Source of the DNA: Magallana gigas
Taxonomy: Eukaryota
Direction of reading: 5' to 3'
Assembly (NCBI RefSeq): GCF_963853765.1
Contig: NC_088856.1
Coordinates: 14,384,001 to 14,448,000, forward strand
Length of the DNA: 64,000 nucleotides
Part shown: positions 3,001-6,000 of the stretch, piece after piece
Numbering within the stretch: the stretch's first letter is position 1
How the letters are laid out: each line of letters starts with the position of its first letter
Made by a program: the position numbers

Positions 3001-6000
3001 TGATACGACAGAGGAAATGCGGACGATTCATCGTAACCATCTTGTCTCTTTTAAAATAAATAAAACAGAAGCACTATGTTTAAATAATAATGATAATAAT
3101 AATAATAATAATAATAAACCTGTAATGTCCTTGTCCTCAGACATATAACACCAAGGAGAATCAAACTTCATTATCTGTTGTATGAGAGTCCTACCTTTTT
3201 TGTCCTTTTCCTCTGATATATAACATCAGGGAGGATCAAACTTCATTATCTGTTGTATGAGAGTCCTACCTGTTATGTCCTTGACCTATGACATATAACA
3301 CCAAGGAGAATCAAACTTCATTATCTGTTGTATGAGAGTCTTACATGTAATGTCCTTGTCCTCAGACATATAACACCAAGGAGAATTATACTTCATTATC
3401 TGTTGTATGAGAGTCCTACCTTTTATGTCCTTGTCCTCTGACATATAACACCAAGGAGGATCATACTTCATTATCTGTTGTATGGCATCATCATCATACA
3501 GATCAGCTCTGTAATCAAACACAAGAAAATACACTGCTTTATAATGAAGATTCCAGATATCAACAGGTAATACTGTGGCATCATCACTGTTAATGATGGT
3601 AGAATAAGTGTTAATTTCATGAATACCTCTTACTTTTAAATTTACATTTCCAAAGAAACTACATAAAGGTGTTAATTAATTTTATTTTCATTACTTGGAT
3701 GATTAAACAATGTACCTTAAAAAAATGTTACTCTAAGGCCTATGAACTCATGTTTTGGGGTGGGCTCTTTTTTTTTTTTTTAACAAACCATTCACAATGA
3801 ACCCAACAAGAAAAAAAAAACACAGCTAAACCAAATTAATGACATCAAAAATCAATAAATACACAATTGATTTGAAGGGGAATATATCGTTAATTCAAAA
3901 TAAAACTAAAGATTACAACTGTAGGTCACAAAGTAGACAAAATCTAAAGATTACAACAGTAGGTCACAAGGGAGACAAAACACAATAAACAGCAAAGGAG
4001 ACATAAGTTTTGTCCAATATTTAATCAAAAATCTTAGAGTTTGGTGTTGGTGATAATTTCCTTAAGATTTTCTTACATGTAATGGTCTGGATCAAACTTT
4101 TCAGTTTCTGCCTGTTCCCTCATCGTCCGTCTGTCTGCTGGTGGACAGTGTTCAGGGTTCGGTAAATCCACTATCTCATAGACCTCATCCTATATAACAC
4201 CACATGTATCAGATGATAGGACTGTTATAAAACTGTCTCAGAAATAATGCACTTCATTTAGTGTACAGGGTAGTTCATTAGTGTATGAATTGCAAACTTT
4301 AATTGTTTCAGTGCTGAGATACATGTAGTTTACTTCTTCACTTTTGATTCAACAGACTTAAGATTTAACGAGGCCGGGTCTAATTTGTTCTGCCCTAGAA
4401 TTGAATGAAATTTTTTACATGAATTTCTACTGATATTATTAATATTTTAAGATTAAATAATAAGACATTTACCACACCGTTTGTTTAAAGGGTCATCTCA
4501 AAGTTTGTTAATTTTTAACATAGGACCCTATGGGATTTTGCTTGAAATGTATCAATTTTGCACATTTTTTACATTTTTTTAAACTTCTGCCCTAGGGATT
4601 TCGTTTTCTGATCTACATATTAATGTTATTGCTAAAAGGCATCAAAAGGTCAAATAAAAAAAACTTTTTACCTTCTGGTTTGTTCCAGGGGTCTTATCAA
4701 AGTTGTTTTTTGTATGCCCAATTTCCAACTTTGTCAGATAATGGCTATTTTTTATTTGACAAAGATGGAAATGGTGATCTTTATAGTATTATCAAAACAT
4801 TCAGATATAGTTAAGTAATAAATAAATATATAACATCACATATTAAGGGCCATTAATATAAAATACATGACATGGTTACTGTTTCGAAATATATGAATTA
4901 ATCTATATTTAGGCGGGTTAAGAAAGCGTGACAGAGGGCTAGGCTTTCTGAACCCTCTTCACGTTTTCGACCCGAGCCCAAATATAGCTTATACTTCGAG
5001 ATATTTATGTTTATTCCACAATATAATATCAATTTTACGCATCAAATGAGCTATTTTCAACAATTTTCACGGAATATCTGCAGTTGAAACTATCACGCCA
5101 TGGCGTCAACAATGCAAAAAGATGATGTCACGACACAAATGAAACGCTGCGCGAAAGTGTGCGTACTCGTTCTGTACTCGGCCTCGTTAAAACAGTTTCA
5201 AATACTTGCTTTATTTTGTAGGTAAATTGAAACACAACAATACAACATGTGTGTTGTTATGTACAGTAAAATATAATTAATAAGCAAATTGATTTAAAAT
5301 TACCCTCACATTAATTTACATAAGAATTGCAGACCTGTAATCTTTTGAATATTCCCGACTTCTGATTGGCAAACCCATATGTCTGGCCGTCCAATAGTAA
5401 TTCTTTCTCCTTATATGGTTGTTGTTCCACATGCCAATCAAACTCTTCCTCCTGCTTTTCTTCTTCTAAATGAGCCTCCTCCTCTACTTTCTCATCTTCA
5501 TCTGATTAAAAAGCAATACCAGAATAAGAATATTCATTATATCAAAATATGGGTCTGAACTTATTTTTCACATTATAGCTGAGGTAGTACTGTATTAGAT
5601 GCTAATTTTGTGCCTAATTCTACAAGTATCAATACTGTAGATTCCTAATTCAACGCGAGGAATTAATATCCAAGTAAAATCGCAAGAAGCACCCTTCGCG
5701 GAATTTAAAATCTCATCATTATTTTGTCAGAGTTTAGAACAAAAAGAAATTAGGTAAAGAGTTCTGCGTTCACAATTCTATTTTCTTGTGATTTGATATA
5801 AAACAGCGGGATCGCAGTACTCGTGTAATATAAGGAATTCACAGTATTTTAAACTTGTAACAGTCATACTTTTTGTATATAACTATTAATGATTATAAAG
5901 AATACAAAATATTCCATCTTGGAACAACTAAAGGATGAATTTTGTATAATCATGGTTGCTGTAATTGCATTTAACAGTAATCTAACTAATTTTGATAAAT

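What the first reader, a model, noticed from the sequence alone, without database searches (positions are those of the whole stretch)
3121..3508. SHQ1 ends in an in-frame 75-bp array of exon-end copies carrying alternative splice donors and a stop codon
Seen: the 3' part of SHQ1 exon 7 is amplified about 5 times in 25-codon units. Three junctions contain G|GTAGGA donor-like sites (3420, 3270, 3195), the outermost has G|GTTTAT (3120), and the third unit has TAG (3286-3288). Splicing at 3420 avoids the stop. Read-through gives a protein of about 279 aa ending in repeated QQIMKxDxPWCYMSEDKDI. No exons for the C-terminal SHQ1 domain appear in the remaining 3.1 kb, although the other introns of this gene are about 1.1 kb or shorter. 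Known: the SHQ1 CS domain and C-terminal domain both engage dyskerin/Cbf5 during H/ACA RNP and telomerase assembly. Inference: either this is a CS-domain-only truncated paralog or allele, or donor choice in the array switches between full-length and truncated/NMD products of a gene that continues beyond position 1.
Basis: partly seen in the sequence, partly recalled or inferred. Interest (0 to 1): 0.65.

Follow-up and report, generated by a model that had tools for sequence, protein, structure and literature searches.

The report
Splice-donor minisatellite in oyster SHQ1 intron
In an oyster SHQ1 gene, the last 65 bases of exon 7 plus the first 10 bases of the next intron are repeated about five times, a kind of repeat already known from human genes, and the only transcript-derived protein found splices at the first copy, so the extra copies are most likely silent intron sequence.

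Summary
A 75-bp, 4.9-copy tandem array (3118-3484, 88% matches) starts inside SHQ1 exon 7 (minus strand) and repeats the exon end plus its splice donor.

The second junction also has a donor, with the same 9-mer as the real intron-6 donor. Unit 4 carries a second in-frame stop, TGA at 3226-3228.

The window is from an oyster, not human.

A 489-aa database protein (P0001) matches all seven window exons 235 of 235 residues. It runs from the exon-7 end at 3420 straight into the rest of the SHQ1 domain, and no part of that rest is in the window. So the gene is not CS-domain-only. It most likely continues beyond position 1, and the first donor is used.

A related oyster contig (P0004) has exon 8 only 77 nt after exon 7 and no array. 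The array and at least 3.1 kb are therefore lineage-specific additions.

The closest known kind is a minisatellite whose first monomer spans an exon-intron boundary: human F7 IVS7, CBS, IFI6, LMNB2, PDGF (PMC1557585).

Use of the extra donors, a rearranged allele and a misjoin remain untested. This is a new member of a known kind, of modest interest.

The parts
7369..7443 (-). SHQ1 exon 1 (ATG at 7443-7441), CS domain
   Evidence: Pfam PF21413 profile 1-23. tblastn of P0001.
6675..6742 (-). SHQ1 exon 2, CS domain
   Evidence: PF21413 profile 24-45..
6485..6549 (-). SHQ1 exon 3, CS domain
   Evidence: PF21413 profile 47-66..
6015..6143 (-). SHQ1 exon 4, end of CS domain plus linker
   Evidence: PF21413 profile 70-93..
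5335..5501 (-). SHQ1 exon 5, acidic linker and start of the structural Shq1-specific domain
   Evidence: 100% identical to P0001 residues 113-168. The yeast 3uah alignment starts at P0001 residue 130.
4077..4189 (-). SHQ1 exon 6
   Evidence: P0001 residues 169-205. Donor CAT|GTAAGA.
3420..3508 (-). SHQ1 exon 7. Its last 65 nt (3420-3484) are the exonic part of array unit 1. The donor in use is G|GT at 3420/3419.
   Evidence: P0001 residues 206-235 are identical and then continue into exon 8. Sequence read.
3118..3484 (-). 75-bp tandem array, 4.9 copies. Units: 3484-3410, 3409-3335, 3334-3260, 3259-3185, and a partial unit 3184-3118.
   Evidence: TRF. Unit table and pairwise differences. Self-BLAST.
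3337..3347 (-). Pseudo-donor of unit 2, CAT|GTAAGA. The exon-like end is at 3345. Its use would add 25 aa in frame.
   Evidence: 7 of 9 matches to the consensus, identical to the real intron-6 donor.
3262..3272 (-). Pseudo-donor of unit 3, CAG|GTAGGA (end at 3270). It lies downstream of the TAG.
3286..3288 (-). In-frame TAG in unit 3. It ends the 279-aa read-through frame.
3226..3228 (-).
3187..3197 (-). Pseudo-donor of unit 4, AAG|GTAGGA (end at 3195), the same 9-mer as the donor in use
3112..3122 (-). Degenerate junction of the cut last unit, CAG|GTTTAT (end at 3120). The array breaks off after GGT.
3083..3117 (.). (AAT)n microsatellite, 11.7 copies, abutting the cut last unit
1..3082 (-). 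Rest of intron 7 held in the window. It has no SHQ1 exon and no recognisable coding remnant.
   Evidence: tblastn. 0 of 37 ORFs of 35 aa or more have a Pfam match. No repeat copies elsewhere in the window.
8040..8087 (-). Upstream exon. The Magallana gigas gene model K1QHE0 uses it as its N-terminus.
   Evidence: 16 of 16 residues identical.

Best explanation
This is an intronic minisatellite whose first monomer straddles the exon 7 / intron 7 junction of a functional oyster SHQ1 gene.

Origin (inferred): a 75-nt segment, 65 nt of exon end plus GTAGGACTCT, was duplicated in tandem and amplified. The likely route is slippage or unequal exchange between two short CATA-like matches, one inside the exon and one at intron positions +10 to +13.

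Later history: the exonic first copy stayed under coding constraint, while the four downstream copies drifted. They acquired two in-frame stops, and the last unit was cut after GGT where an (AAT)n tract and at least 3.1 kb of unrelated non-coding DNA begin.

Splicing: the most upstream donor (3420) is used, the whole array is removed as the start of a long intron, and exon 8 lies beyond position 1.

Why the first of several equally good donors wins (inferred by analogy): in the human F7 IVS7 array, selection runs 5' to 3' and the first site takes all, with the pseudo-sites functional but silent.

Shown here: the array, its register, the decay of the downstream copies, use of the first donor in one full-length protein, and absence of the array in a relative.

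Inferred: the duplication mechanism, silence of the other donors, and the location of exon 8.
For: - Array and register.
- Gene identity, exon by exon: exons 1-4 tile Pfam PF21413 at profile positions 1-23, 24-45, 47-66 and 70-93.
- P0001 (489 aa, on a 2585-nt contig) is identical to the window across exons 1-7, residues 1-235, each exon mapped on its own. That contig must be spliced, because those 235 residues span about 4.0 kb (7443-3420) here.
- P0001 carries a single copy of the motif, ending in K as in unit 1 only, followed by exon 8. It has PF04925 at 230-412.
- Unit 1 keeps the Y, P and P residues shared with Crassostrea virginica SHQ1 (P0003). Units 2-5 share derived F/S/T states and carry 2 stops. 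The 14 of 65 variable columns fall 4/4/6 over codon positions, so there is no third-position excess.
- P0004, a read-through ORF from a related oyster contig, matches the window through the intron-6 tail, exon 7 (26 of 29 aa) and the first five intron codons. Homology then stops, and exon 8 is reached after a 77-nt intron. Only 1 of 479 offsets in P0001 is compatible with that reading. This fixes GTAGGACTCTCAT as the ancestral start of the intron.
- In human F7, LMNB2 and PDGF arrays of this kind, only the first donor is used (PMC1557585, introduction and discussion read).
Against: - The downstream donors look as good as or better than the one in use: 6, 7, 7, 6 and 6 of 9 consensus matches for units 1-5, against 4-8 for the six other donors of the gene. 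Predicted RNA accessibility does not favour the first site (0.12 unpaired, against 0.24-0.49).
- In 2 of the 5 human cases listed in PMC1557585 (IFI6, CBS), the first two pseudo-sites are also used.
- Only one transcript-derived protein is available. NMD-sensitive or minor isoforms would not appear in it. Its cluster of 33 members could not be listed.
- Exon 8 was not seen. A relative has it 77 nt away, so the at least 3.4 kb without it could mark a breakpoint rather than a long intron.
- The CATA microhomology rests partly on codons inferred from P0004's amino acids, not on its DNA.
Confidence: 0.7

Rival explanations
1. Alternative-donor ladder. Besides 3420, the pseudo-donors are used at a meaningful level. 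The donor at 3345 gives an in-frame isoform with 25 extra residues. The donors at 3270 and 3195 include the TAG and give NMD substrates or a 279-aa truncated protein. The array would then modulate SHQ1 output.
For: - The 9-mer at 3345 is identical to the real intron-6 donor, and those at 3270 and 3195 equal or beat the donor in use.
- The unit is a multiple of three.
- The exon 7/8 junction lies in a stretch with gaps against yeast Shq1, so an insertion might be tolerated.
- IFI6 and CBS use their first two pseudo-sites (PMC1557585).
Against: - No protein with a second unit was found: 1 hit of 2 candidates covering exon 7 only, 1 hit of 1 candidate, and 12 representative hits of which only 2 are SHQ1 exon-7 ORFs, both single-copy.
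- P0001 uses the first donor.
- F7 experiments show that even stronger pseudo-sites stay silent.
- All the negatives are weak for minor or NMD-degraded isoforms.
Confidence: 0.17
2. Truncated copy. The window holds a rearranged allele or a partial duplicate of SHQ1 cut in intron 7. The array/(AAT)n junction is the breakpoint, and P0001 is transcribed from another, intact copy.
For: - A relative has exon 8 just 77 nt after exon 7, whereas 3.4 kb here contain none.
- The last unit is cut abruptly after GGT.
- The M. gigas model K1QHE0 lacks exons 6-8 and repeats its C-terminal part, which hints at a structurally difficult locus.
Against: - All seven exons are intact with canonical splice sites, and 235 of 235 residues match a full-length protein. 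Meanwhile the array units differ by 5-19%. A long-lived unconstrained copy should have decayed too.
- Multi-kb introns are ordinary, and the window simply ends.
- The age argument dates the array, not the junction with the 3.1 kb.
Confidence: 0.08
3. Assembly artefact. The copy number of the array, or its join to the (AAT)n tract and the 3.1 kb, was produced by misassembly at a repeat.
For: - Tandem repeats and microsatellites are classic misjoin points.
- The scaffold has a gap elsewhere, an N run at 47321-47449.
- The array ends exactly at a microsatellite.
Against: The five units all differ from one another, by 3-12 differences over 63 nt. They are therefore not stacked copies of one read, and the array itself is real. 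Only the distal junction is open to doubt.
Confidence: 0.05

Closest known systems
Human F7 intron 7 37-bp VNTR (Borensztajn et al. 2006, PMC1557585; abstract, introduction, one results section and discussion read)
   Same: The first monomer of a tandem array spans the exon 7 / intron 7 boundary, so the authentic donor is followed by reiterated pseudo-donors. Only the most upstream site appears in the known mature product.
   Different: The unit here is 75 bp, with 65 exonic and 10 intronic bases, against 37 bp with 4 exonic. It is in frame. The copies have diverged by 5-19% rather than being identical. Two copies carry stops and the last is cut. The organism is a bivalve. Copy-number polymorphism and silence of the pseudo-sites are untested.
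Other human minisatellites over a splice donor: IFI6 (6-16) intron 2, CBS intron 13, LMNB2, PDGF intron 4 (as listed in PMC1557585, introduction)
   Same: Same architecture. LMNB2 (100-bp unit) and PDGF (81-bp unit) have units of similar size and use the authentic site only.
   Different: IFI6 and CBS also use two pseudo-sites, and it is unknown which behaviour applies here. I did not read the primary papers for these four.
[quoted passage not shown] 2010, PMC2891723, passages read; Hellsten et al. 2011, PMC3265369, search listing only)
   Same: A tandem duplication of coding sequence carrying AG|GT. A multiple-of-three size allows in-frame variants, and NMD can remove the others.
   Different: No new intron is created. 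The duplicated copies were absorbed into an existing intron, because each carries the original donor.
SHQ1, the H/ACA RNP assembly chaperone (yeast Shq1 structures 3uah/3uai, 3zuz, 3zv0; review PMC8594475, passages read)
   Same: Exons 1-4 encode the CS domain. Exons 5-7 encode the N-terminal part of the Shq1-specific domain. P0001 carries both Pfam domains.
   Different: Within the window the gene stops at residue 235 of 489. The Pfam Shq1 core (230-412) lies outside it.

Membership tests
SHQ1 (gene identity) | N-terminal SHQ1-like CS domain (PF21413) | tested here: met
   Exons 1-4, searched singly, tile profile positions 1-23, 24-45, 47-66 and 70-93. Each scores below the 27-bit cut-off on its own (15.5-23.7 bits). 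P0001, identical over these exons, scores 117 bits.
SHQ1 (gene identity) | C-terminal Shq1-specific domain (PF04925) | tested here: inconclusive
   Not encoded in the window: no match to P0001 residues 236-489, and exons 5-7 have no Pfam hit to it. It is present at 230-412 of P0001, which shares the window's first 235 residues. Exons 5-7 align to the N-terminal part of the crystallised yeast domain.
Minisatellite whose first monomer spans an exon-intron boundary (F7 IVS7 type) | Head-to-tail tandem array of a 10-100-bp unit | tested here: met
   Period 75, 4.9 copies, 88% matches.
Minisatellite whose first monomer spans an exon-intron boundary (F7 IVS7 type) | The first monomer contains the authentic exon-intron junction | tested here: met
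   P0001 leaves exon 7 at 3420, inside unit 1.
Minisatellite whose first monomer spans an exon-intron boundary (F7 IVS7 type) | The donor sequence is reiterated in the intron | tested here: met
   3 of the 4 downstream junctions keep GTA(A/G)GA, with 6-7 of 9 consensus matches. The fourth is degenerate.
Minisatellite whose first monomer spans an exon-intron boundary (F7 IVS7 type) | Pseudo-sites silent, or only the first few used | tested here: inconclusive
   One full-length protein uses the first site. No protein with a second unit was found. No RNA reads are available.
Minisatellite whose first monomer spans an exon-intron boundary (F7 IVS7 type) | Copy-number polymorphism (VNTR) | not testable with these tools
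   No second genome of the species is available. A related contig (P0004) has no array at all.
[quoted passage not shown] | A new intron bounded by the duplicated AG|GT | tested here: not met
   The intron position is shared with the relative P0004, which has no duplication. The copies extend an existing intron.

The most novel reading that the evidence does not exclude
The array works as a splice-donor ladder that doses SHQ1. The second copy, whose 9-mer equals a real donor of the same gene, would give an in-frame isoform with 25 extra residues in a gap-tolerant stretch of the Shq1-specific domain. The third and fourth copies would give stop-containing transcripts destroyed by NMD. Array length would vary between oysters, making it an expression VNTR for H/ACA RNP and telomerase assembly. 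Nothing seen here excludes this, but nothing supports it beyond the quality of the donors.
Probability: 0.08. Interest if true: 0.55.

Novelty: new member of a known kind. Interest (0 to 1): 0.3.

Why it matters
The main value is annotation. A gene caller could read through the array and report a 279-aa truncated SHQ1, or could break the gene at the long intron. The old M. gigas model K1QHE0 already mis-models this locus.

The array is also a natural non-mammalian test case for how a spliceosome chooses among several near-equal donors spaced 75 nt apart. That question has been studied mainly in human F7. This case has the convenient property that use of the second site stays in frame, while use of the third and fourth sites meets a stop.

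Comparison with a relative suggests a 77-nt intron grew to more than 3.4 kb in this lineage. That is a small but clear example of intron expansion.

Tried and rejected
- Pfam on the 73-aa read-through frame gave only chance-level hits (Trefoil, Kringle and others, E 0.023 or higher, all below cut-off).
- Exon 8 or later exons in the window: none found.
- Dispersed copies of the unit, or of the first 3.6 kb, elsewhere in the window: none found.
- Terminal inverted repeats in 1-3600: only two weak pairs, 70-75% complementary.
- Transposon or other coding remnants in 1-3117: 0 of 37 ORFs matched. What the 3.1 kb is remains unknown.
- Rfam over the whole window: 0 matches.
- RNA accessibility as a reason for choosing the first site: it points the other way and is weak evidence at best.
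- Base composition of 1-3000 (27-34% GC) does not differ from the other introns.
- In the representative-library search, 10 of the 12 hits are unrelated low-identity repeat proteins.
- A literature search for SHQ1 with oyster returned 4 papers, none relevant by title or abstract.
- Considered and rejected: a cryptic intron from the 3420 donor to the CAG inside a later unit. It has no pyrimidine tract and would shift the frame (my reading).
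Full report
**What is in the sequence**

Tandem Repeats Finder reports one array at 3118-3484: period 75, 4.9 copies, 88% matches, no indels, score 594. 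It is followed directly by an (AAT)n tract at 3083-3117. A self-BLAST of the first 3.6 kb against the window gives E = 3e-106 for the shifted copies. It finds no copy of the unit, or of anything else in 1-3600, elsewhere in the 64 kb. The array is local and far beyond chance.

On the minus strand the unit is the last 65 nt of an exon plus the first 10 nt of the following intron. It is 25 codons long and in frame with the exon.

The five exon-like ends are AAG|GTAGGA (3420), CAT|GTAAGA (3345), CAG|GTAGGA (3270), AAG|GTAGGA (3195) and CAG|GTTTAT (3120).

**What the gene is, and how it was searched**

The window is not human. It is 34.6% G+C and its best protein matches are oyster proteins. The one N run (47321-47449) was left as it is.

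I searched the spliced model exon by exon only. I did not build, search or fold a joined exon 1-7 sequence. The full-length comparator below is a database protein.

Seven minus-strand exons (7443-7369, 6742-6675, 6549-6485, 6143-6015, 5501-5335, 4189-4077, 3508-3420) have canonical GT/AG borders.

- Exons 1-4, searched singly, tile the Pfam SHQ1-like CS domain end to end, at profile positions 1-23, 24-45, 47-66 and 70-93. Each is below the curated cut-off on its own.
- Exons 5-7, searched singly, hit no SHQ1 model.

Exon 5 alone retrieved 3 proteins out of 59 candidates:
- P0001: 489 aa, 100% identical, unnamed source, on a 2585-nt contig.
- K1QHE0: the Magallana gigas 'Protein SHQ1 homolog'.
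- The Crassostrea virginica SHQ1 homolog.

P0001 is about 95-96% identical to the M. gigas model and 80% to C. virginica. The organism is therefore a Magallana/Crassostrea-type oyster. I cannot name the species.

**Does the gene end in the array?**

tblastn places P0001 residues 1-235 on the seven exons without a single difference inside them. Residues 236-489 have no match in the window at E < 1.

P0001 contains the motif once, in the unit-1 version. After the exon end at 3420 it continues directly with the sequence that Pfam calls the Shq1 domain (PF04925, residues 230-412). Those 235 residues span about 4.0 kb (7443-3420) of genome here, so a 2585-nt contig encoding all 489 residues must be spliced RNA. 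That last step is my inference.

So a full-length SHQ1 message exists in this or a near-identical organism, and it uses the first donor.

The truncated read-through product would not be 'CS-domain only'. The crystallised yeast Shq1-specific domain (3uah/3uai) aligns to P0001 residues 130-413, so exons 5-7 encode its first third.

**The downstream copies look like decaying intron sequence**

- Unit 1 differs from each other unit at 5-6 of 63 positions. Units 2-5 differ among themselves at 3-12.
- Unit 1 keeps the Y-D-P-P-W-C-Y residues found in C. virginica SHQ1. Three of the four downstream units share F, three share S, and three share T at the final position. Two carry stops.
- The 14 variable columns out of 65 fall 4, 4 and 6 on codon positions 1, 2 and 3. 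The numbers are too small for a test, but there is no sign of coding constraint outside unit 1.

**An unexpected comparison**

I searched the contiguous read-through frame (window:3289-3507, minus strand) among proteins of similar length. This returned one hit, P0004, a 93-aa ORF on a 1015-nt contig of unnamed source.

P0004 is the in-frame reading of a related oyster's genomic DNA:
- The tail of intron 6, with 14 of 28 residues identical to the window in the same frame.
- Exon 7, with 26 of 29 residues identical.
- The same first five intron codons.
- Then 21 unrelated codons.
- Then ten residues that are the frame-shifted reading of the start of exon 8. Only 1 of 479 offsets in P0001 is compatible, namely residue 236.

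In that relative, intron 7 is therefore 77 nt long and has no array. Its homology to the window ends at the unit boundary, and the rest of P0004 matches nothing in the window.

Two conclusions follow:
- GTAGGACTCTCAT is the ancestral start of the intron. This fixes the register of the unit.
- The array and the at least 3.1 kb after it are additions in the window's lineage.

The exon has CATAC where the repeat begins, and the intron has CAT plus an isoleucine codon where it ends. A slippage event between short matches is thus a plausible origin, but that is inference, and part of it rests on amino acids only.

The last unit is cut after GGT at the (AAT)n tract, so a second event (insertion, rearrangement or misjoin) happened there. 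The 3.1 kb itself gave no clue:
- 0 of 37 ORFs of 35 aa or more match Pfam.
- There are no strong inverted repeats.
- There are no Rfam matches.
- Composition is ordinary.

**Are the other donors used?**

By sequence they could be. Matches to the 9-nt consensus are 6, 7, 7, 6 and 6 for units 1-5, against 8, 6, 6, 4, 6 and 7 for the six other donors of this gene. A thermodynamic fold does not make the first site more accessible.

- Use of 3345 would add 25 residues in frame, in a stretch where the yeast alignment has gaps.
- Use of 3270 or 3195 would include the TAG.

I found no protein carrying a second unit:
- Exon 7 plus unit 2 retrieved only P0001, covering exon 7 alone (1 hit of 2 candidates).
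- The representative library gave 12 hits. Only P0004 and P0010 are exon-7 ORFs. P0010 is C. virginica-like and stops three codons into the intron. Both are single-copy. The other ten are unrelated repeat proteins.

These negatives are weak. An isoform more than 90% identical to P0001 would sit hidden in its cluster of 33 members, which could not be listed. NMD targets would be rare in assemblies. No RNA reads or eukaryotic genomes were available.

**Comparison with what is known**

The architecture is a described kind. Borensztajn et al. 2006 (PMC1557585; abstract, introduction, one results section and discussion read) study the human F7 intron-7 37-bp VNTR, whose first monomer spans the exon-intron boundary. 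They list further cases in IFI6, CBS, LMNB2 (100-bp unit) and PDGF (81-bp unit).

- In F7, LMNB2 and PDGF, only the authentic first site is used.
- In IFI6 and CBS, two pseudo-sites are used as well.
- In F7 the pseudo-sites are functional but silent, and the most upstream functional site always wins.

The tandem-duplication route to new splice patterns is discussed for Drosophila in PMC2891723 (passages read). That includes the remark that multiples of three allow in-frame variants and that NMD removes the others. No new intron is created here. The copies were absorbed into an existing one.

A search for SHQ1 together with oyster found nothing relevant (4 papers). A search for minisatellite, boundary and pseudo-site terms found only the F7 paper and two general splice-site papers. 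I therefore know of no description of this particular array.

**Verdict**

- Most likely (0.7), this is a functional SHQ1 gene whose exon 7 donor is followed by four decaying copies of itself at the start of a lineage-specifically enlarged intron, with the first donor used and the rest of the gene beyond position 1.
- Rivals: real use of the extra donors (0.17), a rearranged or partial copy (0.08), and a misjoin at the distal end of the array (0.05).
- It is a new member of a known kind. Interest is modest (0.3), mainly for annotation and as a natural model of donor choice.

Noticed in passing
window 8040-8087 (-): A short upstream exon with its own ATG matches 16 of 16 residues of the N-terminus of the M. 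gigas model K1QHE0. That model skips exon 1, lacks exons 6-8 and repeats its C-terminal part. It is either an alternative first exon or a faulty gene model.
   Followed up: partly
window 8709-12389 (+): A gene diverges head to head from SHQ1. It has a long first ORF (8709-9551) and a patatin-like phospholipase exon at 10076-10471 (PF01734, E 7e-07). The two genes probably share a bidirectional promoter of about 0.6 kb.
   Followed up: partly
window 3902-3981: Intron 6 of SHQ1 also holds a small tandem duplication: 38-bp unit, 2.1 copies, 88% matches.
   Followed up: no
window 19409-19855 (-): An exon of an aminomethyltransferase (glycine-cleavage T protein; PF01571, E 6e-41).
   Followed up: no
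window 40257-43503 (-): Exons of a BRPF-like chromatin reader: EPL1, PHD, zf-HC5HC2H and bromodomain matches.
   Followed up: no
window 50727-51113 (+): An exon with a reprolysin-family propeptide (PF01562, E 1e-16), suggesting an ADAM/ADAMTS-type metalloprotease gene.
   Followed up: no
window 17269-17700 (+): A 143-aa open frame with no Pfam match. From recall only, its sequence resembles the C-terminal tail of non-LTR retrotransposon ORF2 proteins. Not tested.
   Followed up: no
window 30622-31036; 49626-52540: A 154-bp tandem repeat (2.7 copies), and four long perfect (GA)n/(TC)n microsatellites of 29-39 copies within 3 kb.
   Followed up: no
window 47321-47449: A run of 129 N, an assembly gap or masked stretch. 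Left untouched.
   Followed up: no
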